From assembly GCF_029227855.1 (NCBI RefSeq), contig NZ_CP074358.1: a stretch of DNA of 64,000 bases; one strand, given 5' to 3'. The position numbers and the translations under genes were made by a program. Shown piece after piece: positions 3,583 through 53,725 of this stretch; position 1 is the first letter of the stretch, and every line of letters starts with the position of its first letter. The notes below the pieces were generated by a model, which saw nothing but the letters and a program-made list of their open reading frames with translations, searched no databases and was not told the origin of the DNA. This DNA is from Escherichia coli. GTDB lineage: Bacteria > Pseudomonadota > Gammaproteobacteria > Enterobacterales > Enterobacteriaceae.

Positions 3583-4220
3583 TTATTATTAGCTATTAAT
3601 CAGTTTTTTAGTTTTTGAAAATTGTGATGCTTCTAAAATTACTAAAATTGAGGATTTTAATGCTACAACAATGCCTGCCTCTTCTTATTTCTCCGGAGAT
3701 CCGAAAACCCCAAGTTCAGGATCTTCCTCTCCCCCCACACAACGCCACCTCCTGTAAGCACAATATGTGGTGCCGGATTCAGCTACTGATGACACTATAT
3801 GTTGTGTCATCTCCCTGACCTGTGATGCGTCGCGCAGGGGCGGAAAACAGCGATATGATGATTTCCTCAGCGTGGTACACTTCCGGAAACCCGTCAATAA
3901 CAGAAAAATCGGATCTGCCTGAAATGGGCATCCGGTAATTTAATGGCGTGGTTATATGCCTGCTTATTATCTGACAGGTGATGATTTATTTAGGGGAAAA
4001 TAATTCATGCTGACAGAGTGTTGTGCTGCCATGCGTAATAACTCTGAGCGACTGTTGCTTCCGGTATCAGTTGAGTGAGGATTTTCAGACCACCACGTTT
4101 TACTGACCAGTAAAAATTTTTTTTGCCCGCAAGGCTGACAAGTGACTTCTTTTAGAATTTCGGCATCCACAACCAATGGCAGGAAGCCCGATGCAAAAAT
4201 TTTTAAGGAGAGCTCTTTTA

Positions 4221-9270: not shown

Positions 9271-9663
9271 GTGGACGATGAACGGAAAAGGAAAAAATTC
9301 ACACTTTATCTGCATCCGGAAAAAGCTGCAGACTTTCAAACTTTGGAAGCGATAGAGTCCGTTCCGCGTTCTGAGCGTGGTGAGCTGTTCCGGAATGCAT
9401 TTATTTCTGGAATGGCGTTACACCAACTTGATCCTCGCCTGCCTGTATTGCTGACTGCCATTTTGAGCGAGGAGTTTTCAGCAGATCAGGTTGTAACCTT
9501 ACTCAGTCAGACGACTGGATGGAAGCCTTCTCAGGCCGATATCAGAGCTGTGTTGACTGAACTCGGTGCTTTGCAATCTGCTGAAAAAATGCCTCCTTCT
9601 GCTACTGATTCGGTGCAGGAGGCAATGAATGATGTGCGCCTTAAAATGCAAAAATTATTCTGA
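9271..9663 (+). CDS. parR: ParR/StbB centromere-binding adaptor
   Basis: Small basic ORF directly after parM; in-frame GTG at 9271 chosen just after the parM stop (ORF-track ATG at 9235 would overlap parM by 32 nt). Confidence 0.65.
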   Translation: MDDERKRKKFTLYLHPEKAADFQTLEAIESVPRSERGELFRNAFISGMALHQLDPRLPVLLTAILSEEFSADQVVTLLSQTTGWKPSQADIRAVLTELGALQSAEKMPPSATDSVQEAMNDVRLKMQKLF

Positions 9664-9674
9664 TATATCAGAAT
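9657..9674. repeat. Perfect 18-bp palindrome attctgatatatcagaat containing the stop codons of both convergent genes (parR and impB)
   Basis: Read directly; TGA at 9661-9663 (+) and TGA at 9670-9668 (-) are symmetric within the palindrome. Confidence 0.8.
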
Positions 9675-10939
9675 GAAGCAATGGGGATCTCAGTCCATTG
9701 TGTTGTATACGAAGGCGAGAGCATTTCCCGTTTCATTTGCCATTCAGGGGCGGTTCCTCGCCCCGCAAACCACACTTTCCCTTTTCCCGACTGGTTCAGT
9801 TCATCGAGTGTTTTCATTAACTTTTCACTGTTTTTACGGGGCTGGATTTCATCAAATAATCCCGGCTGCGCTATACCCGATGGTGTGAAATCAGCCAGCA
9901 TGACTCCTGCCTTCATATAGCGGTACCCTTCACGCCAGACATGGTTTAAGGCTCTGCATGCGGCGGCAATAATGTCCCGGCTGTCCTGTGTGGGCAATGG
10001 AAGCTTTTCCACAGCGGCATTGCTGTAACAGGGTTCTTTTACTGCAAAGGGGGATGTCCGTACAAATGTCGTCACCTGCCGGCAATACTGACGCTCCCCA
10101 CGTAGTTTCTCTGCGGCCCGCTCTGCATACTGAACAACAGCCTGGTGCATGGCATCTTTGTCTGTGATTCGTTCACCAAAACTGCGACTACAGACAATCT
10201 GCTGTTTTGCCGGTGGTGCTTCTTCCAGGGATATGCAGGACTCGCCGTTGAGTTCGCGTACCGTACGCTCAAGAATGACGCTGAAGTTTTTCCGGATGAA
10301 TGCCGTGTTAGCCTGCGCCAGCTGCAGTGCTGTGTTAATACCCAGCGCATTCAGCTTTTCCGTCAGTCTGCGTCCTACTCCCCAGACCTCACCAACTGGC
10401 TGCAGCCCCAGTAGCTTCAAGGTCCGATTACGGTTTTCTGCCGTCAGCGCGACCACTCCGGAAAACTGTGGCCATTGCTTTGTTGCCCACTGTGCACTTT
10501 TAGCCAGCGTTTTTGTAGGCGCAATGCCCACCCCCATGGTGAGTCCTGTCCAGCTCTTTACCTGTTCCCTGAGCTGATGACCAAAAAACTCCGGAGAGAT
10601 GCAATGATTTATCCCCCGCAAATCAATAAACATTTCATCAATTGAGTAGGGCTCAACTGCGGGAGAAAGCGACTCCAGAACAGCCATGACCCGTTGGCTC
10701 ATGCTGTGGTACAGCGCATAATTGCTGGAAAATACATGTATTTTCTTCTCCAGGCGCATCTGTCTCACCTGAAACCAGGGCTGCCCCATTCTGATGCCAA
10801 GGGCTTTTGCCTCCGGGCTGCGCGCGATCACACAGCCATCGTTATTGCTGAGTACGATGACCGGTTCGTTGCGAAGGTCCGGGCGGAAAACTTTTTCACA
10901 TGAGGCGTAGAAACTGTTGATATCAGCCAGTGCAAACAT
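9668..10939 (-). CDS. impB: Y-family error-prone DNA polymerase catalytic subunit (UmuC/MucB/ImpB family)
   Basis: N-terminus MFALADINSFYASCE...VIVLSNNDGCVIARS, typical UmuC/DinB fold; 423 aa. Confidence 0.9.
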   Translation of the reverse strand: MFALADINSFYASCEKVFRPDLRNEPVIVLSNNDGCVIARSPEAKALGIRMGQPWFQVRQMRLEKKIHVFSSNYALYHSMSQRVMAVLESLSPAVEPYSIDEMFIDLRGINHCISPEFFGHQLREQVKSWTGLTMGVGIAPTKTLAKSAQWATKQWPQFSGVVALTAENRNRTLKLLGLQPVGEVWGVGRRLTEKLNALGINTALQLAQANTAFIRKNFSVILERTVRELNGESCISLEEAPPAKQQIVCSRSFGERITDKDAMHQAVVQYAERAAEKLRGERQYCRQVTTFVRTSPFAVKEPCYSNAAVEKLPLPTQDSRDIIAAACRALNHVWREGYRYMKAGVMLADFTPSGIAQPGLFDEIQPRKNSEKLMKTLDELNQSGKGKVWFAGRGTAPEWQMKREMLSPSYTTQWTEIPIASF

Positions 10940-43223: not shown

Positions 43224-43484
43224 ATGATGAAAGTCATATTCACGTCGAACCGTTTTATTGATTTTCTTATCCGGCTTTTGATTACAGCGATTGTCATTTC
43301 CCCAGTAATTATCTGGTCGTGGGATACGGTAAAAGAAACCACTGCAGGTGAGATACTTGCTGCTGCTTTCGTTATTTTTTACTCCGGTGTGCTCCTGTTT
43401 ATTCTGTATTTTTGTTTTTCTGCCCTGACTGACCTGCAGAAACCTGATGAAAGAAAAAGTGATGAAAGGAATGAAGATGAATAA
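43224..43484 (+). CDS. trbE: TrbE
   Basis: 86 aa membrane protein; F order. Confidence 0.75.
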   Translation: MMKVIFTSNRFIDFLIRLLITAIVISPVIIWSWDTVKETTAGEILAAAFVIFYSGVLLFILYFCFSALTDLQKPDERKSDERNEDE

Positions 43485-44220
43485 AGCATTACTGCCGCTG
43501 TTACTCTGCTGCTTTATTTTTCCGGCGTCAGGAAAAGATGCAGGCTGGCAGTGGTATAACGAGAAAATAAATCCGAAGGAAAAAGAAAATAAACCAGTAC
43601 CTGCAGCCCCCCGTCAGGAGCCGGACATTATGCAGAAACTGGCCGCACTGCAGACGGCAACAAAGCGGGCGCTGTACGAAGCTATTCTGTATCCCGGCGT
43701 GGATAATTTTGTGAAATATTTCCGGCTGCAGAATTACTGGACTCAGCAGGCCGGGTTTTTCACCATGAGCGCCAAAAAAGCCATGCTGGCGCATCCCGAA
43801 CTGGACTATAACCTGCAGTACAGCCATTACAACGGCACGGTCCGGAACCAGCTGGCGGCAGACCAGGTGCAGCAGCGACAGGCCATTGCGAAACTGGCTG
43901 AACACTACGGCATCATGTTCTTTTACCGGGGGCAGGACCCCATCGACGGGCAGCTGGCGCAGGTCATTAATGGCTTCAGGGATACCTATGGTCTGAGTGT
44001 TATTCCCGTTTCCGTGGATGGCGTGATTAATCCGCTGTTGCCGGATTCCCGGACTGACCAGGGGCAGGCGCAGCGCCTCGGCGTGAAATATTTCCCGGCC
44101 ATGATGCTGGTTGACCCGAAACAGGGCAGTGTTCGTCCGTTATCATACGGTTTTATTTCGCAGGACGACCTGGCAAAACAATTCCTGAACGTTTCTGAAG
44201 ATTTTAAACCCAATTTTTAA
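43477..44220 (+). CDS. traF: TraF (thioredoxin-fold pilus assembly protein), 247 aa
   Basis: Start moved to MNKALLPLLLCCFIFPASG signal peptide. Confidence 0.9.
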   Translation: MNKALLPLLLCCFIFPASGKDAGWQWYNEKINPKEKENKPVPAAPRQEPDIMQKLAALQTATKRALYEAILYPGVDNFVKYFRLQNYWTQQAGFFTMSAKKAMLAHPELDYNLQYSHYNGTVRNQLAADQVQQRQAIAKLAEHYGIMFFYRGQDPIDGQLAQVINGFRDTYGLSVIPVSVDGVINPLLPDSRTDQGQAQRLGVKYFPAMMLVDPKQGSVRPLSYGFISQDDLAKQFLNVSEDFKPNF

Positions 44221-44235
44221 TCGCGGATTTGATTT

Positions 44236-44583
44236 ATGAGTGAAGATTATTTGAAAATGTTTACAGGTGTTGTTCTGTTAATATTTGTCATTATTGCCGG
44301 TTATTTCTTTTCTGAGCGTAATGACAGGAAAATGTTTCTCCTGAGCTCACTGGTTTTCCTTGTTATTAATATCGCGTGTTTATATGTGCTGACTGCCAGT
44401 CTCTGGTTTCTGTGTGGTGCAATTATGAATCAGGGCGCAGCAATGGTTGTTCCAATGGTTATTGGCTCATTACCGAACGTTACGAGCTTCGACGGGTTCA
44501 GAAGAATATTTATCTGTATTATGTTGTCATCAGTATGGTCCGGAGTGATGTGGTTTTTTATAAGGGGGCTTATGACAGGCTAA
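44236..44583 (+). CDS. trbA: TrbA
   Basis: 115 aa polytopic membrane protein; F order. Confidence 0.75.
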   Translation: MSEDYLKMFTGVVLLIFVIIAGYFFSERNDRKMFLLSSLVFLVINIACLYVLTASLWFLCGAIMNQGAAMVVPMVIGSLPNVTSFDGFRRIFICIMLSSVWSGVMWFFIRGLMTG

Positions 44584-44701
44584 GTCATATAAAACGGTAA
44601 TAAAAACCATACAAAATAATGAGGTTGATCTGATTAATATCACACAAACGCGAATATTACAGACATAAATACTCTCATGTAAATAATAACCGGAGTTTAA
44701 C

Positions 44702-44986
44702 ATGATAAGTAAACGTAGATTCTCTTTACCCCGGCTTGATATTACGGGAATGTGGGTATTTTCCCTGGGTGTCTGGTTTCATATCGTCGCCCGTCTTGTT
44801 TACAGCAAACCCTGGATGGCTTTTTTTCTGGCGGAGTTGATTGCGGCCATCCTTGTGCTGTTCGGCGCATACCAGGTGCTGGATGCATGGATTGCCCGTG
44901 TCAGCCGGGAAGAGCGTGAGGCACTGGAAGCCAGGCAACAGGCCATGATGGAAGGGCAGCAGGAGGGCAGACATGTCTCTCATTAA
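44702..44986 (+). CDS. traQ: TraQ pilin chaperone
   Basis: 94 aa, TM segment; F order. Confidence 0.85.
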   Translation: MISKRRFSLPRLDITGMWVFSLGVWFHIVARLVYSKPWMAFFLAELIAAILVLFGAYQVLDAWIARVSREEREALEARQQAMMEGQQEGRHVSH

Positions 44987-45518
44987 ATCACTGTTGTTCA
45001 CCCTGTTGCTGGCAGCCGCTGCCGTGCAGGCCTCCACCCGGGATGAAATTGAACGACTCTGGAATCCGCAGGGCATGGCCGCGCAGCCTGCACAACCGGC
45101 AGCAGGCACGTCAGCCAGGACAGAAAAGCCAGCCCCCCGCTGGTTCCGCCTCAGCAACGGCAGGCAGGTTAACCTGGCCGACTGGAAGGTGGTGCTGTTT
45201 ATGCAGGGGCATTGCCCTTACTGTCACCAGTTTGACCCGGTACTGAAACAGCTGGCACAGCAGTACGGCTTTTTCGTTTTTCCCTACACCCTGGATGGTC
45301 AGGGGGATACCGCCTTTCCGGAGGCATTGCCGGTGCCACCGGACGTGATGCAGACCTTCTTCCCGAATATCCCAGTGGCCACACCGACCACCTTCCTGGT
45401 CAACGTCAACACGCTTGAGGCATTACCGCTTTTACAGGGGGCAACGGATGCTGCCGGTTTTATGGCGCGGATGGATACCGTTCTGCAGATGTACGGAGGG
45501 AAAAAAGGTGCGAAATAA
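44973..45518 (+). CDS. trbB: TrbB thioredoxin-like disulfide isomerase
   Basis: CPYC active-site motif; signal peptide. Confidence 0.9.
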   Translation: MSLIKSLLFTLLLAAAAVQASTRDEIERLWNPQGMAAQPAQPAAGTSARTEKPAPRWFRLSNGRQVNLADWKVVLFMQGHCPYCHQFDPVLKQLAQQYGFFVFPYTLDGQGDTAFPEALPVPPDVMQTFFPNIPVATPTTFLVNVNTLEALPLLQGATDAAGFMARMDTVLQMYGGKKGAK

Positions 45519-45810
45519 GCAGGTGGTGTTACTCATTGCCGGAATATCCGGCATCGCGACGGGAATAATCGTCAGCCTGAATATCCCCTTTATCCATCAG
45601 GGGCTTTTTTATCCCGCCAGCCCTGTAGAAATTGTCGTTTCGCTGTGCCTTACCTTTTCTGTTTCTGTTGTGTTTTTTGTGGGGGCAATTGTGGGATGGA
45701 TTTCGGTGTCTGAAATATATTACAGCCGCAGGACTGGACGGAAATATCGGGATATTCCTGCTGAAATGTCGTATGCGCCGGGAGAACAAATTAAGGGAGG
45801 GCAAGAATGA
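45508..45810 (+). CDS. trbJ: TrbJ (about 100 aa, GTG start overlapping trbB end)
   Basis: Small membrane protein between trbB and traH; start uncertain. Confidence 0.55.
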   Translation: MRNKQVVLLIAGISGIATGIIVSLNIPFIHQGLFYPASPVEIVVSLCLTFSVSVVFFVGAIVGWISVSEIYYSRRTGRKYRDIPAEMSYAPGEQIKGGQE

Positions 45811-47183
45811 TGCCACGCATTAAACCTCTTCTGGTTCTTTGTGCTGCTTTACTGACGGTCACACCCGCAGCGTCAGCGGATGTGAACAGCGACATGAATC
45901 AGTTCTTTAACAAGCTGGGCTTCGCCTCCAATACCACACAGCCGGGCGTCTGGCAGGGGCAGGCCGCCGGTTATGCTTACGGTGGCTCCCTGTATGCCCG
46001 TACTCAGGTCAAAAATGTTCAGCTGATTTCCATGACGCTGCCGGATATCAATGCCGGATGTGGCGGCATCGACGCCTATCTCGGCTCGTTCAGTTTTATT
46101 AATGGCGAGCAGCTGCAGCGTTTTGTTAAGCAGATTATGAGCAATGCTGCCGGTTACTTTTTTGACCTTGCCCTGCAGACAACGGTGCCGGAAATCAAAA
46201 CCGCAAAAGACTTCCTGCAGAAAATGGCAAGCGACATTAACAGTATGAACCTCAGTTCCTGCCAGGCTGCACAGGGGATTATCGGCGGGCTTTTTCCCCG
46301 GACGCAGGTGTCCCAGCAGAAAGTCTGTCAGGACATTGCCGGTGAGAGCAATATTTTTGCTGACTGGGCGGCTTCCCGGCAGGGATGTACCGTTGGCGGG
46401 AAATCTGACAGTGTCAGGGATAAAGCCAGCGACAAGGATAAGGAGCGGGTGACCAAAAACATCAACATCATGTGGAATGCGCTTTCCAAAAACAGAATGT
46501 TTGACGGCAACAAAGAGCTGAAAGAATTTGTGATGACGCTGACCGGCTCACTGGTGTTTGGTCCCAACGGCGAAATCACACCGCTGTCAGCCAGAACCAC
46601 TGACCGCTCAATTATCCGGGCCATGATGGAAGGCGGCACAGCAAAAATTTATCACTGCAACGATTCTGATAAATGCCTGAAAGTGGTGGCAGAGACACCG
46701 GTGACCATCAGCCGGGATAATGCACTGAAGTCTCAGATTACTAAACTTCTGGCCAGCATTCAGAACAAGGCGGTCAGTGACACGCCTCTGGATGACAAGG
46801 AAAAAGGCTTTATTTCCAGTACCACCATCCCCGTCTTCAAATACCTGGTTGACCCGCAGATGCTCGGTGTTTCCAACAGTATGATTTACCAGCTGACGGA
46901 CTATATCGGTTACGACATCCTGCTGCAGTACATTCAGGAGCTGATACAGCAGGCCCGGGCGATGGTGGCCACAGGAAATTATGACGAAGCAGTTATCGAA
47001 CATATTAACGACAACATGAATGATGCCACCCGGCAGATTGCGGCGTTTCAGTCACAGGTGCAGGTACAGCAGGATGCGCTGCTGGTTGTCGATCGTCAGA
47101 TGAGCTACATGCGTCAGCAGCTTTCCGCCCGCATGCTCAGTCGTTACCAGAACAACTATCACTTCGGAGGGAGCACGCTGTGA
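45807..47183 (+). CDS. traH: TraH
   Basis: 458 aa, signal peptide; F order. Confidence 0.95.
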   Translation: MMPRIKPLLVLCAALLTVTPAASADVNSDMNQFFNKLGFASNTTQPGVWQGQAAGYAYGGSLYARTQVKNVQLISMTLPDINAGCGGIDAYLGSFSFINGEQLQRFVKQIMSNAAGYFFDLALQTTVPEIKTAKDFLQKMASDINSMNLSSCQAAQGIIGGLFPRTQVSQQKVCQDIAGESNIFADWAASRQGCTVGGKSDSVRDKASDKDKERVTKNINIMWNALSKNRMFDGNKELKEFVMTLTGSLVFGPNGEITPLSARTTDRSIIRAMMEGGTAKIYHCNDSDKCLKVVAETPVTISRDNALKSQITKLLASIQNKAVSDTPLDDKEKGFISSTTIPVFKYLVDPQMLGVSNSMIYQLTDYIGYDILLQYIQELIQQARAMVATGNYDEAVIEHINDNMNDATRQIAAFQSQVQVQQDALLVVDRQMSYMRQQLSARMLSRYQNNYHFGGSTL

Positions 47184-50002
47184 ATGAAGTTTATGTGATT
47201 GCCGGTGGTGAGTGGTTGCGGAATAACCTGAACGCCATTGCCGCCTTTATGGGAACCAGGACGTGGGATTCCATTGAAAAAATTGCGCTCACATTGTCTG
47301 TTCTCGCGGTGGCCGTGATGTGGGTACAGCGGCACAACGTGATGGATTTGCTGGGCTGGGTGGCCGTGTTTGTGCTTATCAGCCTGCTGGTTAATGTCCG
47401 CACATCGGTGCAGATTATTGATAACAGTGACCTGGTCAAAGTTCACCGGGTGGATAATGTACCGGTCGGACTGGCGATGCCACTTTCACTGACGACCCGT
47501 ATCGGGCATGCAATGGTGGCCAGTTACGAGATGATCTTCACGCAACCGGACAGTGTCACCTACAGCAAAACGGGGATGCTGTTTGGCGCAGAACTGGTAT
47601 CAAAAAGCACCGACTTTTTGTCCCGCAATCCGGAAATCGCCAATCTTTTCCAGGATTATGTGCAGAACTGCGTGATGGGGGATATTTACCTGAACCACAA
47701 ATACACGCTGGAGGAGCTGATGGCCTCCGCTGATCCCTACACGCTGATTTTTTCCCGCCCCAGTCCGCTACGGGGCGTTTATGACAGCAATAATAATTTC
47801 GTGACCTGTAAGGACGCGTCGGTTTCGCTGAAAGACAAGCTGAATCTGGATACACAGAGTGGCGGAAAAACCTGGCATTATTATGCCCAGCAGCTATTTG
47901 GTGGACGCCCTGATCCGAACCTGTTGTTCAGTACGCTGATTGGCGACAGTTACAGTTACTTCTATGGCTCAAGTAAATCAGCCAGCCAGATCATCCGCCA
48001 GAATGTCACCATCAATGCGCTGAAGGAGGGGATCACCAGTTATGCCGCGCGTAATGGTGATTCAGCCAGCCTGGTGAATCTGGCCACCACGTCATCGATG
48101 GAGAAGCAACGTCTGGCACATGTCTCCATCGGTCATGTGGCGATGCGGACACTGCCCATGACGCAGACCATCCTGACGGGGATCGCCATCGGTATTTTCC
48201 CGCTTCTGGTACTGGCGGTTGTCTTCAACAAACTGACGCTATCCGTCCTGAAAGGCTATGTGTTTGCCCTGATGTGGTTGCAGTCATGGCCAATGTTGTA
48301 CGCCATTCTGAACAGCGCCATGACATTTTATGCGAAGCAGAATGGTGCACCGGTGGTGCTCTCGGAAATTTCACAGATACAGCTGAAATACTCCGATCTG
48401 GCTTCCACTGCCGGGTATCTTTCCATGATGATCCCGCCATTATCCTGGATGATGGTCAGGGGACTCGGGGCCGGATTTTCCAGTGTGTACAGCCATTTCG
48501 CTTCCTCTGCTATCAGCCCGACTGCCAGTGCGGCAGGTAGTGTGGTTGACGGTAATTACTCCTACGGCAACATGCAGACGGAAAACGTGAACGGCTTCAG
48601 CTGGAGCACCAACAGCACCACGTCGTTTGGTCAGATGATGTACCAGACCGGCAGTGGCGCAACCGCCACACAGACCCGTGACGGTAATATGGTGATGGAT
48701 GCGAGCGGGGCGATGTCCCGTTTACCGGTCGGTATCAATGCAACGCGTCAGATTGCGGCGGCACAACAGGAAATGGCCCGGGAGGCGTCGAACAGAGCAG
48801 AAAGCGCCCTGCATGGGTTCAGCAGCAGTATTGCCAGTGCCTGGAACTCGCTCAGTCAGTTTGGTTCTAACCGGGGGAGCAGTGATTCTGTCACCGGTGG
48901 TGCTGACAGCACGATGAGCGCACAGGACTCCATGATGGCCAGCCGTATGCGCAGCGCAGTGGAAAGCTATGCGAAGGCGCATAATATCAGTAATGAGCAG
49001 GCGACAAGAGAACTGGCATCAAGAAGTACGAGAGGTTCTGCGGGGATGTATGGCGATGCTCATGCTGAATGGGGGGTTAAACCTAAAATTCTTGGTGTTG
49101 GTGGTGGCGTAGGTGTTAGAGGTGGTGGTCGGGCAAGTATTGACTGGAGTGATGAGGATGCGCATCAGGCCAGCAGTGGTTCACGGGCCAGCCATGATGC
49201 TCGCCATGATATCGATGCCAGGGCTACACAAGACTTTAAAGAGGCCAGCGATTACTTTACCAGTCGCAAGGTCAGTGAATCCGGCAGCCATACGGACAAT
49301 AATGCCGATTCCCGTGTGGACCAGCTGTCTGCAGCCCTGAACTCAGCAAAACAGAGTTACGACCAGTACACGACGAATATGACCCGCAGCCATGAATATG
49401 CTGAAATGGCATCCCGTACTGAAAGCATGAGTGGGCAGATGAGTGAAGACCTGTCGCAACAGTTTGCACAGTATGTGATGAAACACGCGCCGCAGGATGC
49501 CGAAGCTATTCTGACAAACACCAGTTCACCGGAGATTGCAGAACGCCGTCGGGCTATGGCGTGGTCTTTCGTTCAGGAACAGGTGCAGCCTGGTGTTGAT
49601 AATGCCTGGCGTGAATCCCGTGGGGACATCGGTAAAGGAATGGAGAGCGTACCTTCGGGGGGGGGCAGCCAGGATATTATTGCTGATTATCAGGGGCATC
49701 AGGCCATTATTGAGCAAAGAACGCAGGACAGTAATATCCGTAATGATGTAAAACATCAGGTTGATAATATGGTCACAGAATACCGAGGCAATATCGGAGA
49801 TACTCAGAGCAGCATACGTGGCGAAGAAAATATTGTAGGAAGACAGTATTCTGAACTACAAAATCACCATAAAACAGAGGCATTATCTCAGAATAATAAA
49901 TATAATGAAGAAAAATCGGGTCAGGAAAGAATGCCCGGGGCTGACAGTCCACAGGAACTGATGAAAAGAGCAAAGGAGTATCAGGATAAGCACAAGCAAT
50001 AA
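47180..50002 (+). CDS. traG: TraG (F-type, VirB6-like N-terminal domain plus mating-pair stabilisation/entry-exclusion C-terminal domain)
   Basis: 940 aa; polytopic N-terminal half, hydrophilic C-terminal half. Confidence 0.95.
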   Translation: MNEVYVIAGGEWLRNNLNAIAAFMGTRTWDSIEKIALTLSVLAVAVMWVQRHNVMDLLGWVAVFVLISLLVNVRTSVQIIDNSDLVKVHRVDNVPVGLAMPLSLTTRIGHAMVASYEMIFTQPDSVTYSKTGMLFGAELVSKSTDFLSRNPEIANLFQDYVQNCVMGDIYLNHKYTLEELMASADPYTLIFSRPSPLRGVYDSNNNFVTCKDASVSLKDKLNLDTQSGGKTWHYYAQQLFGGRPDPNLLFSTLIGDSYSYFYGSSKSASQIIRQNVTINALKEGITSYAARNGDSASLVNLATTSSMEKQRLAHVSIGHVAMRTLPMTQTILTGIAIGIFPLLVLAVVFNKLTLSVLKGYVFALMWLQSWPMLYAILNSAMTFYAKQNGAPVVLSEISQIQLKYSDLASTAGYLSMMIPPLSWMMVRGLGAGFSSVYSHFASSAISPTASAAGSVVDGNYSYGNMQTENVNGFSWSTNSTTSFGQMMYQTGSGATATQTRDGNMVMDASGAMSRLPVGINATRQIAAAQQEMAREASNRAESALHGFSSSIASAWNSLSQFGSNRGSSDSVTGGADSTMSAQDSMMASRMRSAVESYAKAHNISNEQATRELASRSTRGSAGMYGDAHAEWGVKPKILGVGGGVGVRGGGRASIDWSDEDAHQASSGSRASHDARHDIDARATQDFKEASDYFTSRKVSESGSHTDNNADSRVDQLSAALNSAKQSYDQYTTNMTRSHEYAEMASRTESMSGQMSEDLSQQFAQYVMKHAPQDAEAILTNTSSPEIAERRRAMAWSFVQEQVQPGVDNAWRESRGDIGKGMESVPSGGGSQDIIADYQGHQAIIEQRTQDSNIRNDVKHQVDNMVTEYRGNIGDTQSSIRGEENIVGRQYSELQNHHKTEALSQNNKYNEEKSGQERMPGADSPQELMKRAKEYQDKHKQ

Positions 50003-50022
50003 TATTGTATGGGGAGATGATA

Positions 50023-50520
50023 ATGAAAAATTTAGCTCATATTGCTCTGGTGACGGTGATACAGCTCATTGCCTGTTATCTGGCTGATTGGGGGAGTGCC
50101 GAAACAGTTTTTATCCTGTGCTTTATTGTACTATGGCAGGGATTGTTTATATGGTTATTTTCTCAAATACGAAAAAAACGGCATGTGTCGGATGAGTTTA
50201 AATTCAGTAAAGGCGTTTGGTATATACTGATGCCAGTATCTTCCTTACTCTCTCCGTTATTAAGCCTGATGGTTTTTATCATTGGTACACTATACGAATT
50301 AAGGCGAATTAGTGGTTGTGTAAGTGTAAGAGAATGGATGCAATCTCAGGTAAATGAACAAACTAATGAAGATTTGCATCTGGATTTTGATGATGTGAAT
50401 TTTGATTATGTGGATTTTTATCGTACTAATCCGGCAACAGGATTAGCTATGCATGGAGGATTTGATTCAGCAGGAAATACTTTTGGGACTTGTTGGCAGG
50501 ACTATGATGACAGGCGATAA
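50023..50520 (+). CDS. traS: TraS entry-exclusion inner-membrane protein
   Basis: AT-rich hydrophobic ORF between traG and traT; ATG 50023 with ggggag RBS. Confidence 0.7.
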
Positions 50521-51535: not shown

Positions 51536-53725
51536 ATGAGTTTTAACGCAAAGGATATGACCCAGGGCGGTCAGATTGCGTCCATGCGTATCCGCATGTT
51601 CAGCCAGATCGCCAATATCATGCTTTACTGCCTGTTTATTTTTTTCTGGATACTCGTTGGTCTGGTTTTATGGGTAAAAATAAGCTGGCAGACGTTTGTG
51701 AACGGCTGTATTTACTGGTGGTGTACCACGCTGGAAGGCATGCGGGATTTAATCAAGTCCCAGCCGGTCTATGAGATCCAGTATTACGGCAAAACCTTCC
51801 GGATGAATGCTGCTCAGGTACTGCATGATAAATATATGATCTGGTGCGGAGAGCAGCTATGGTCCGCATCCGTTCTGGCCACAGTTGTGGCACTGGTTAT
51901 TTGCCTGATTACCTTCTTTGTTGTCTCCTGGATTCTGGGGCGTCAGGGTAAACAACAGAGCGAAAATGAAGTCACAGGTGGTCGTCAGCTGACAGACAAT
52001 CCGAAAGACGTTGCCCGGATGCTGAAAAAAGACGGCAAGGACTCCGATATCCGGATTGGCGACCTGCCGATTATCCGGGATTCTGAAATCCAGAACTTCT
52101 GTCTGCACGGCACGGTCGGGGCCGGTAAGTCGGAAGTTATCCGTCGTCTGGCCAACTACGCCCGTCAGCGCGGTGATATGGTGGTGATTTATGACCGTTC
52201 AGGGGAATTTGTTAAAAGTTACTATGATCCCTCCATCGATAAGATCCTGAATCCGCTGGATGCCCGCTGTGCCGCCTGGGATTTATGGAAGGAGTGTCTG
52301 ACACAGCCGGATTTTGATAATACGGCAAATACCCTGATCCCGATGGGCACAAAAGAGGACCCGTTCTGGCAGGGTTCAGGACGTACCATTTTTGCGGAAG
52401 CGGCGTACCTGATGCGTAATGACCCCAACCGCAGCTACAGCAAACTGGTGGACACACTGCTTTCCATCAAAATCGAAAAACTGCGTACCTTCCTGCGTAA
52501 TTCACCGGCGGCCAACCTGGTGGAAGAGAAAATTGAGAAAACGGCGATTTCCATCCGTGCTGTGCTGACCAACTACGTGAAAGCCATCCGTTACCTGCAG
52601 GGGATTGAGCATAACGGTGAGTCTTTTACCATCCGTGACTGGATGCGGGGTGTCCGGGAAGATCAGAAAAACGGCTGGCTGTTTATCTCGTCGAATGCCG
52701 ACACCCATGCCTCCCTGAAGCCGGTGATCTCCATGTGGCTGTCCATTGCCATTCGTGGTCTGCTGGCAATGGGAGAAAACCGTAACCGTCGTGTGTGGTT
52801 TTTCTGTGATGAGCTACCCACGTTACACAAACTGCCGGACCTGGTGGAGATCCTGCCGGAAGCCCGTAAGTTCGGTGGCTGTTATGTGTTTGGTATCCAG
52901 TCCTATGCCCAGCTGGAAGATATCTACGGTGAGAAAGCGGCTGCCACGCTGTTTGACGTCATGAACACCCGTGCCTTTTTCCGTTCTCCCAGCCATAAGA
53001 TTGCAGAGTTCGCTGCCGGTGAGATTGGTGAGAAAGAGCACCTGAAAGCCAGCGAGCAGTACTCCTACGGTGCTGATCCGGTACGTGACGGGGTATCGAC
53101 CGGTAAGGATATGGAGCGCCAGACGCTGGTCAGTTATTCCGACATTCAGTCTCTGCCGGATTTGACCTGTTATGTCACCCTGCCCGGACCGTATCCGGCA
53201 GTAAAACTCTCACTGAAATATCAGGCACGTCCGAAGGTTGCCCCTGAGTTTATTCCGCGTGACATCAACCCGGAAATGGAGAACCGCCTGAGCGCCGTAC
53301 TTGCCGCAAGGGAAGCAGAAGGTCGTCAGATGGCCAGCCTCTTCGAACCGGATGTGCCGGAAGTTGTTTCCGGAGAAGACGTGACTCAGGCTGAACAGCC
53401 GCAACAGCCGCAACAGCCGCAACAGCCGCAACAGCCGCAACAGCCGGTGTCTCCTGCCATCAACGATAAGAAGTCAGATTCAGGTGTGAATGTTCCGGCA
53501 GGGGGGATCGAGCAGGAGCTGAAAATGAAACCGGAAGAAGAGATGGAACAGCAACTGCCACCCGGGATCAGTGAATCCGGTGAAGTGGTGGATATGGCCG
53601 CTTATGAGGCATGGCAACAGGAAAATCATCCGGACATCCAGCAGCAGATGCAGCGTCGTGAAGAGGTGAACATTAATGTGCACCGGGAGCGCGGGGAGGA
53701 TGTTGAGCCGGGAGATGATTTCTGA
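51536..53725 (+). CDS. traD: TraD type IV coupling protein
   Basis: 729 aa; N-terminal TM segments, Walker [10 protein letters not shown]-terminal (QQP)n tail. Confidence 0.95.
53393..53446 (+). repeat. 9-bp tandem repeat (caacagccg x6, first unit gaacagccg) encoding the TraD QQP tail
   Basis: Read directly from sequence; translates to [18 protein letters not shown]. Confidence 0.9.

What the first reader, a model, noticed from the sequence alone, without database searches (positions are those of the whole stretch)
45508..45810. No room for a trbF-like gene between trbJ and traH
In the F gene order as I recall it, trbF lies between trbJ and traH. Here the trbJ-like ORF ends at 45810 and traH starts at 45807. 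This may be a lineage difference (R100-like) rather than a deletion.
Basis: inference. Interest (0 to 1): 0.15.

Follow-up and report, generated by a model that had tools for sequence, protein, structure and literature searches.

The report
Common trbF-deletion allele of F-like plasmids
This F-like plasmid lacks the small accessory gene trbF because about 345 bases were deleted, joining the front of trbJ to the last codons of trbF just before traH; the same deletion is in about a fifth of sequenced F/R100-type plasmids, so it is ordinary.

Summary
The ORF 45508-45810 is TrbJ, traH starts at 45807/45810, and no trbF gene lies between them.

F and R100 both carry trbF, so the arrangement is not R100-like. 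It is also a deletion in origin. Compared with trbF-bearing plasmids, the window lacks one clean block of 345-346 bp, with the junction at 45737|45738.

What remains is an in-frame chimera. It keeps TrbJ residues 1-78, including both membrane helices, followed by the 22-codon tail that F-type trbF uses. It ends at the same TGA that overlaps the traH ATG.

A remnant of the R100-type TrbF C-terminus is still readable in the +1 frame. The closest trbF-bearing relative, pAPEC-O2-MS1657-1, shares the SNPs at both breakpoints, and its trbF carries a nonsense codon.

The identical junction occurs in 779 PLSDB plasmids, against 2805 with trbF. It also occurs in 683 of 5426 complete RefSeq E. coli genomes. 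One carrier is pAPEC-O2-R, which is used as a conjugative donor. Apart from artA, trbF and a variant traS, every F tra gene (traM to traX) is present at essentially full length.

This is an ordinary, already-sequenced allele: loss of a dispensable, fast-evolving accessory gene.

The parts
44973..45518 (+). trbB (thiol-disulfide isomerase). Its last 11 nt overlap the GTG start of trbJ.
   Evidence: NCBIfam NF010288 scores 324.8 bits against a cutoff of 199. tblastn gives 96% identity to F TrbB over its full length.
45495..45500 (+). Shine-Dalgarno-like GGAGGG, 7 nt upstream of the GTG start of trbJ
   Evidence: Read directly from the sequence. The function is inferred.
45508..45810 (+). Chimeric trbJ'-'trbF ORF of 100 aa from the GTG start (120 aa from the alternative ATG at 45448 that PGAP uses in homologues)
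   Evidence: Searches give the ORF and its translation. NCBIfam TrbJ NF010265 scores 187.7 and 238.7 bits against a cutoff of 164.
45508..45737 (+). trbJ-derived part: residues 1-76 plus the first two bases of codon 77. It contains both predicted membrane helices (aa 6-24 and 42-60).
   Evidence: Alignments A1 and reg.aln. The first 75 codons are identical to TrbJ of L009. Hydropathy analysis gives the two helices.
45737..45738 (.). Deletion junction. A block of 345 bp (relative to L009) or 346 bp (relative to F) is missing between these two bases.
   Evidence: The 66-mer spanning this junction is found in 779 PLSDB records and in 683 of 5426 E. coli genomes.
45738..45810 (+). Remnant of the trbF 3' end, read in the frame used by F-type trbF. 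It encodes the tail RKYRDIPAEMSYAPGEQIKGGQE plus the TGA stop.
   Evidence: F TrbF ends with RKYRDIPAEMSYAPGEHIKGGQE. This stretch is 95.9% identical in nucleotides to F.
45734..45823 (+). The same remnant read in the +1 frame: the last 28 codons of an R100-type TrbF C-terminus (...GIFLLKCRMRRENKLREGKNDATH*). Its stop lies 14-17 nt inside traH. It is not a gene.
   Evidence: The tail of ORF 45632-45823 matches TrbF model NF010306 at positions 113-140, scoring 21.7 bits with E=1.3e-4. R100, L008 and L009 TrbF end the same way.
45793..45801 (+). Shine-Dalgarno-like AAGGGAGGG for traH, lying inside the remnant tail
   Evidence: Read directly from the sequence. It is identical in F, L001, L002 and L003. 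The function is inferred.
45807..47183 (+). traH (pilus assembly). ATG codons at 45807 and 45810 overlap the TGA stop at 45808-45810.
   Evidence: NCBIfam NF010279 scores 917.1 bits against a cutoff of 625. tblastn gives 99.3% identity to F TraH over its full length.

Best explanation
The window carries a widespread derived allele of the F-type tra operon. A single illegitimate deletion of about 345 bp removed the last roughly 17 codons of trbJ and all of trbF except about 70 nt at its 3' end.

The deletion keeps the trbJ reading frame open. The result is a chimeric small inner-membrane protein. It has the TrbJ core with both membrane helices and a new 22-residue tail encoded by the trbF 3' end. 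It terminates at the same TGA that overlaps the traH ATG in F, behind the same Shine-Dalgarno sequence. Expression of traH, and any translational coupling into it, is therefore expected to be unchanged.

trbF is a fast-evolving accessory gene found only in the F/R100 clade. Its loss is tolerated: the rest of the transfer operon is intact, and plasmids with this junction conjugate. The allele arose once, in a lineage close to pAPEC-O2-MS1657-1 where trbF was already decaying, and has since spread onto several tra backgrounds by descent and recombination.

Shown here: the anatomy, the junction, the remnant, the distribution and the nearest relative. Inferred: neutrality, preserved coupling to traH, and a single origin.
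For: Clean block and in-frame chimera:
- Alignments show one clean missing block.
- Translation shows an in-frame chimera.

Remnant:
- The trbF C-terminal remnant hits TrbF model NF010306 at positions 113-140.
- tblastn with F TrbF finds only residues 88-126.

Polarity (deletion, not insertion):
- trbF is present in every deep branch sampled: F, R100 and L008, which is only 84% identical in the flank.
- The compact alleles cluster with trbF-bearing L009. The left flank is 99.0-99.3% identical. The first 75 TrbJ codons are identical. The SNPs at both breakpoints are shared. The tail of L010 is 100% identical to that of L009.
- In L009 trbF carries a premature TAA.

Dispensability:
- trbF has dN/dS of 0.5-0.6 and only 56-61% amino-acid identity between alleles, against 0.12-0.31 for trbB.
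- pSLT-like and Klebsiella IncFII plasmids lack both trbJ and trbF.
- Every other F tra gene from traM to traX except artA and traS matches F over its full length, or from residue 12 for traX.
- 773 of the 779 junction-bearing plasmids are typed as conjugative.
- pAPEC-O2-R carries the junction and yields transconjugants (PMC7840957).
- pEC_B24 is reported to lack trbF yet to be easily transferred (PMC2887853).
- Non-essential F genes are less conserved across MOBF12 plasmids (PMC5102898).

Expression signals:
- The traH Shine-Dalgarno sequence and the ATGATG overlap are identical to F.
Against: - No conjugation assay compares isogenic trbF-positive and trbF-negative plasmids, so neutrality is inferred.
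- The pAPEC-O2-R donor strain also carries a second F-like plasmid that could help in trans.
- I could not retrieve the pEC_B24 sequence, so I did not confirm that it has this exact junction.
- No repeat of 3 nt or more flanks the breakpoints, so the deletion mechanism is unknown.
- Polarity and single origin rest on a sample of 9 loci rather than a full phylogeny.
- Whether the fusion protein is made and is functional was not tested.
Confidence: 0.88

Rival explanations
1. The compact arrangement is ancestral. On this view trbF was inserted between trbJ and traH in the ancestors of F and R100, and captured the old TrbJ tail as its own 3' end.
For: More distant MPF_F plasmids (pSLT-like, Klebsiella IncFII) have no trbF at all, so trbF was gained at some point. 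The F-type TrbF tail equals the tail of the compact TrbJ.
Against: Those outgroups also lack trbJ, so they say nothing about the order of events within the trbJ-bearing clade. trbF is present in all deep branches sampled (F, R100, and L008 at 84% flank identity), and it has diverged to 56-61% amino-acid identity, which means it is old. The compact alleles are almost identical to one another and nest next to trbF-bearing L009. The window still encodes the R100-type TrbF C-terminus in the +1 frame. That is expected for a remnant and not for a sequence that predates trbF.
Confidence: 0.05
2. One reading: an R100-type lineage difference in gene order, not a deletion.
For: The window resembles R100 in two other respects. 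It lacks artA between trbA and traQ, with a 119-nt gap in both. traD abuts traI directly.
Against: R100 has a 393-bp trbF between trbJ and traH. The window's TraM, TraJ and TraY are 99% identical to those of F. The missing block is a clean deletion relative to all trbF-bearing plasmids.
Confidence: 0.02
3. The loss of trbF was positively selected. For example, trbF might be costly, or might act as a plasmid-specific determinant, and the chimeric TrbJ tail might have gained a role. That would explain why the allele reached about 22% of the clade on several backgrounds.
For: The allele is frequent and sits on at least three different flank backgrounds: window/L002, L010 and L003. The 5' third of trbF is hypervariable, at 40-58% nucleotide identity, next to a highly conserved trbJ. 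That pattern is compatible with diversifying pressure. An independent nonsense mutation inactivates trbF in L009.
Against: Hitch-hiking with successful plasmid lineages explains the frequency equally well. dN/dS of 0.5-0.6 is below 1. The chimeric tail itself varies freely between compact alleles: RKYRDIPAEMSYAPGEQIKGGQE against RKYQDIPVETPYAPGEHIKGGQQ. There are no phenotype data.
Confidence: 0.1
4. Assembly or sequencing artefact, or a private deletion in this one record.
For: None.
Against: The identical junction 66-mer is found in 779 PLSDB records and in 698 RefSeq E. coli records, from many laboratories and sequencing platforms.
Confidence: 0.01

Closest known systems
F plasmid (NC_002483) trbB-trbJ-trbF-traH segment
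   Same: The gene order is the same on both sides. trbB is 96% identical, TraH 99.3% and the TrbJ core 95%. The traH Shine-Dalgarno sequence and the TGATG stop/start overlap are identical. The window's TrbJ tail equals the last 22 residues of F TrbF, apart from one H-to-Q change.
   Different: F has a separate 93-aa (GTG start) or 113-aa (ATG start) TrbJ with the tail MTGLNESSEISEGTYNERK, and a complete 126-aa TrbF. The window lacks that 346-bp block.
R100 (NC_002134) tra operon
   Same: artA is absent in both, with a 119-nt trbA-traQ gap. traD abuts traI in both. The TrbJ core shares the IATG and SLCL residues.
   Different: R100 has a 130-aa TrbF whose C-terminus is in another frame and ends 14 nt inside traH. 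The window has no trbF, and its regulatory genes are of the F type.
pAPEC-O2-R (NC_006671), pRHB03-C16_2 (CP058028), p45407_1 (NZ_CP041393), pEC12-2 (NZ_CP060934) and about 775 other PLSDB plasmids
   Same: They have the identical compact junction. They are annotated as a 363-bp trbJ directly abutting traH, with no trbF. pRHB03-C16_2 is 99.9% identical to the window over 1.4 kb.
   Different: Nothing differs at the junction. The flanks differ by recombination: the traH 5' allele varies, and pEC12-2 has a different trbB N-terminus.
pAPEC-O2-MS1657-1 (NZ_CP135958), the closest trbF-bearing relative
   Same: The SNPs at both breakpoints are the same. The first 75 TrbJ codons are identical. The left flank is 99.0% identical.
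   Different: It still carries the 345-bp block, but its trbF has a premature TAA at codon 63 and is left unannotated in the PLSDB table.
pSLT-like and Klebsiella IncFII MPF_F operons
   Same: There is no trbF upstream of traH, and the operon is still typed as conjugative.
   Different: These lack trbJ as well, so trbB abuts traH directly. That is a different and older state, not this deletion.

Membership tests
F-type TrbJ (NCBIfam NF010265 / PRK13711) | Whole-protein score above the curated cutoff of 164 bits | tested here: met
   187.7 bits for the 100-aa GTG form and 238.7 bits for the 120-aa ATG form.
F-type TrbJ (NCBIfam NF010265 / PRK13711) | Two hydrophobic membrane helices, and a position immediately after and overlapping trbB | tested here: met
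   Hydropathy peaks at aa 6-24 and 42-60, the same as F TrbJ. The GTG at 45508 overlaps the end of trbB at 45518.
F-type TrbJ (NCBIfam NF010265 / PRK13711) | Canonical C-terminal tail (…SRMTGLNESSEISEGTYNERK) followed by trbF | tested here: not met
   From about residue 77 the tail is RKYRDIPAEMSYAPGEQIKGGQE, encoded by the trbF 3' end.
F-type TrbF (NCBIfam NF010306 / PRK13743) | An ORF scoring at least 144 bits over the 140-position model, lying between trbJ and traH | tested here: not met
   Only a 28-residue C-terminal fragment matches, at 21.7 bits over model positions 113-140, in a frame with no N-terminus. tblastn with F TrbF finds only residues 88-126. F and R100 TrbF score 195 and 238 bits as positive controls.
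TraH (NCBIfam NF010279) | Score above the 625-bit cutoff, at full length | tested here: met
   917.1 bits, covering residues 1-456 of 457. 99.3% identical to F TraH.
   R100 (NC_002134) has trbJ at 69079-69426, trbF at 69407-69799 and traH at 69786-71159.
Complete MPF_F (F-type) transfer operon | Homologues of the F genes known to be needed for transfer, present over the full length of the F protein: traA, L, E, K, B, V, C, W, U, N, F, H, G, D and I, trbC, and also traQ and trbI | tested here: met
   tblastn with 34 F Tra/Trb proteins found matches from traM to traX covering the full length of the F protein (traX from residue 12). Only artA, trbF and F-type traS were missing. Conjugation itself cannot be tested with these tools.
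   Accession KY749247 is not in the collections.

The most novel reading that the evidence does not exclude
The hypervariable trbF might be a plasmid-specific accessory determinant of the F-type secretion machine, for example one that modulates mating specificity or exclusion. On that reading, the recurrent loss of the gene (this deletion, plus independent nonsense alleles) and the TrbJ protein with a borrowed tail would be adaptive changes in about a fifth of clinical and veterinary IncF plasmids, rather than neutral decay.
Probability: 0.06. Interest if true: 0.4.

Novelty: already known. Interest (0 to 1): 0.08.

Why it matters
It matters little. The result confirms that trbF is dispensable in natural F-like plasmids. 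It shows that the gene annotated trbJ in about 780 PLSDB plasmids is really a trbJ'-'trbF chimera, which is useful for annotation and for typing tra regions. The junction 66-mer is a convenient marker for one sublineage or recombinant block of IncF transfer regions. It does not open a new biological question unless a function for trbF is found.

Tried and rejected
- **Promoter and terminator scans.** I ran them on the window and on the F segment to see whether the deletion removed an internal promoter upstream of traH. I recall such a promoter from Ham, Firth and Skurray 1989, but that paper is not held in the library. The scans found nothing above the shuffled expectation in either sequence, so they are uninformative.
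- **Repeats at the breakpoints.** I looked for direct repeats that could explain the deletion. No repeat of 3 nt or more sits at the breakpoints. A 10-nt direct repeat, CGGAAATATC, exists, but its left copy lies 14 nt inside the deleted block. Recombination between the two copies would give a product different from the one observed.
- **Records not retrievable.** AP001918, KY749247 (R1) and GU371926 (pEC_B24) are not in the collections. F was obtained as NC_002483 instead. R1 and pEC_B24 remain unchecked.
- **Papers not retrievable.** The Maneewannakul and Ippen-Ihler 1993 paper on trbJ mutants (PMC193242) is not held. Two paper searches failed on term syntax, and one found nothing.
- **Wrong trbF.** The bioRxiv paper with 17 mentions of trbF concerns the unrelated RP4/IncP trbF.
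- **Pfam.** It has no family for TrbJ or TrbF.
- **Searches deliberately skipped.** I ran no further search on TrbF function, because the verdict on this finding does not depend on it.

Full report
**1. The observation**

Window 43447-50002 is the traF-trbA-traQ-trbB-trbJ-traH-traG stretch of an F-type transfer operon. Each ORF passes its NCBIfam curated cutoff.

It stops at TGA 45808-45810. This is the classical 93-aa-type start of F TrbJ. PGAP uses ATG 45448 in homologous records. traH begins at ATG 45807 or 45810, so the two genes overlap.

No ORF in the window reaches the TrbF model. tblastn with F TrbF finds only its last 39 residues.

**2. What is really there**

I aligned the window with trbF-bearing plasmids: F, the near-F plasmid L001, R100, L008 and L009. 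The alignment shows one clean missing block, 346 bp relative to F and 345 bp relative to L009. The junction lies between window bases 45737 and 45738.

The block runs from codon 77 of trbJ to 70 nt before the end of trbF. Translation shows that the surviving ORF is a chimera:
- It keeps the TrbJ core …GWISVSEIYYSRRTG. Both hydrophobic helices (aa 6-24 and 42-60) are untouched.
- This is followed by RKYRDIPAEMSYAPGEQIKGGQE, which is the C-terminus of F-type TrbF.

The chimera stops at the same TGA that overlaps the traH ATG in F. The same AAGGGAGGG lies upstream.

Read in the +1 frame, the same 70-85 nt still encode …GIFLLKCRMRRENKLREGKNDATH. This matches positions 113-140 of the NCBIfam TrbF model, at 21.7 bits and E=1.3e-4. 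It is also the C-terminus of TrbF in R100, L008 and L009. The window therefore holds an unmistakable trbF 3' remnant.

**3. Deletion or lineage difference?**

- F and R100 both have trbF. The "R100-like" suggestion is wrong. The window's TraM, TraJ and TraY are 99% identical to F.
- More distant MPF_F operons (pSLT-like, Klebsiella IncFII) lack both trbJ and trbF. The pair is therefore an accessory module of the E. coli F/R100 clade.
- Within that clade trbF occurs in every deep branch sampled. This includes L008, whose flank is only 84% identical to the window. Its alleles have diverged to 56-61% amino-acid identity.
- The compact alleles (window, L002, L010) are 99.3-99.7% identical to each other in the left flank. 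They are 99.0-99.3% identical to one trbF-bearing plasmid, pAPEC-O2-MS1657-1 (L009).
- L009 shares the diagnostic SNPs on both sides of the breakpoints (GCAGGACTGG | ACGGAAATATCGGG). Its first 75 TrbJ codons are identical to the window's. Its tail is 100% identical to that of compact L010.
- In L009 trbF has a premature TAA at codon 63.

The most parsimonious history is a single deletion in an L009-like lineage where trbF was already dispensable or decaying.

The same junction is also found with other flanks: L003 has a different trbB N-terminus, and L010 and L003 have a different traH 5' allele. No repeat sits at the breakpoints to drive recurrence. The allele has therefore probably moved between backgrounds by recombination. 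This last step is inferred.

**4. How common is it?**

| Query | Collection | Result |
|---|---|---|
| 66-mer centred on the junction (E ≤ 1e-12, so a hit must cross the junction) | PLSDB | 779 records, 773 typed conjugative |
| The deleted trbF block | PLSDB | 2805 records |
| Same junction 66-mer | RefSeq complete E. coli genomes | 683 of 5426 genomes (692 places on plasmids, 9 on chromosomes) |

The compact allele therefore accounts for about 22% of the clade in PLSDB. Carriers include pAPEC-O2-R (NC_006671) and the plasmid of the E. coli type strain DSM 30083. In all of them the region is annotated as a 363-bp trbJ abutting traH.

**5. How it works (function)**

Shown:
- Every other F transfer gene from traM to traX except artA and traS has a match covering the full length of the F protein (traX from residue 12).
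- The traH ribosome-binding site and the stop/start overlap are unchanged.

From the literature:
- pAPEC-O2-R is used as a conjugative donor and yields transconjugants (PMC7840957). The caveat is that the donor strain also holds a second F-like plasmid.
- pEC_B24 is described as lacking trbF and artA yet "easily transferred by conjugation" (PMC2887853). I could not verify its junction.
- Genes that are non-essential for F transfer are less conserved across MOBF12 plasmids (PMC5102898).

Sequence evolution agrees with this:
- trbF has dN/dS of 0.5-0.6, and its 5' third falls to 40-58% nucleotide identity.
- The adjacent trbJ core is the most conserved stretch of the region, at 93-98% even against L008.
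- The left breakpoint sits exactly where that conservation ends.

Inferred: the deletion is tolerated because three things survive. These are the constrained TrbJ core, an open frame running to the normal stop, and the traH start signals. The new tail varies freely between compact alleles, so it is probably unconstrained.

**6. Comparison with what is known, and novelty**

The closest known things are the F and R100 operons, which have the same neighbours but carry trbF, and the hundreds of database plasmids with the identical junction. The absence of trbF in some IncF plasmids has been noted in print.

I did not find the chimeric nature of the annotated trbJ stated in the papers I could search. 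It is an annotation detail, not a new kind of system. Verdict: already known and ordinary, of low interest.

**7. Limits**

- There is no isogenic phenotype test.
- Polarity and single origin rest on nine loci.
- R1 and pEC_B24 could not be retrieved.
- The older primary papers on trbJ and trbF are not in the library. What I recall of them is not used as evidence: the 93-aa TrbJ, the 126-aa TrbF, and a reported internal promoter near traH.

Noticed in passing
L005 (F) 3676-4056 compared with L004 (R100) 9408-9800, L008 2383-2775 and L009 2377-2768: F's own TrbF C-terminus (…VRINIRKYRDIPAEMSYAPGEHIKGGQE) is a frame variant. F has a run of 7 T where L009 has 6. This shifts its last roughly 30 codons relative to R100, L008 and L009, which end …RRMRRE..REG.NNASH with a stop 14 nt inside traH. 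The NCBIfam TrbF model follows the R100-type tail: R100 scores 238 bits and F scores 195 bits.
   Followed up: partly
L009 (NZ_CP135958.1, pAPEC-O2-MS1657-1), locus 2377-2756: trbF here is a pseudogene, with GAA changed to TAA at codon 63, and it is absent from the PLSDB gene table. Several other records (H55, H60, H62, H148 and H149) also hold the block without an annotated trbF. This suggests further independent inactivations.
   Followed up: partly
window 45440-45737 (trbJ core) compared with its flanks: trbJ is far more conserved at the nucleotide level than its neighbours. Between F or R100 and the divergent plasmid L008 it is 93-98% identical with dS of 0.07-0.11. In trbB the dS is about 0.7, and the trbF 5' third is only 40-58% identical. 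This could be a recombination patch or a nucleotide-level constraint. It is unexplained.
   Followed up: partly
window 44584-44701: The trbA-traQ spacer is 119 nt, as in R100. In F it is 397 nt and holds the antisense artA ORF. artA is therefore also absent from this plasmid.
   Followed up: partly
window 50005-50520: The traS position holds a 171-aa hydrophobic ORF with no tblastn match to F TraS. TraG, at 91% identity, is also the most divergent large Tra protein. This is presumably a different entry-exclusion specificity allele.
   Followed up: no
window 53722-53725: traD is followed directly by traI, as in R100. In F the two are separated by about 715 bp, annotated as an antisense vapBC toxin-antitoxin pair in the trbH region.
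   Followed up: no
NCBIfam NF010265 naming: PGAP names this 93-120-aa two-helix F protein 'P-type conjugative transfer protein TrbJ'. From general knowledge, the IncP/RP4 TrbJ is an unrelated, larger VirB5-like protein, so the product name looks like a misnomer carried into thousands of records. I did not test this here.
   Followed up: no
E. coli genomes: Nine of the 701 junction matches lie on chromosomes rather than plasmids. These would be integrated F-like elements (Hfr-like) or misassigned replicons.
   Followed up: no
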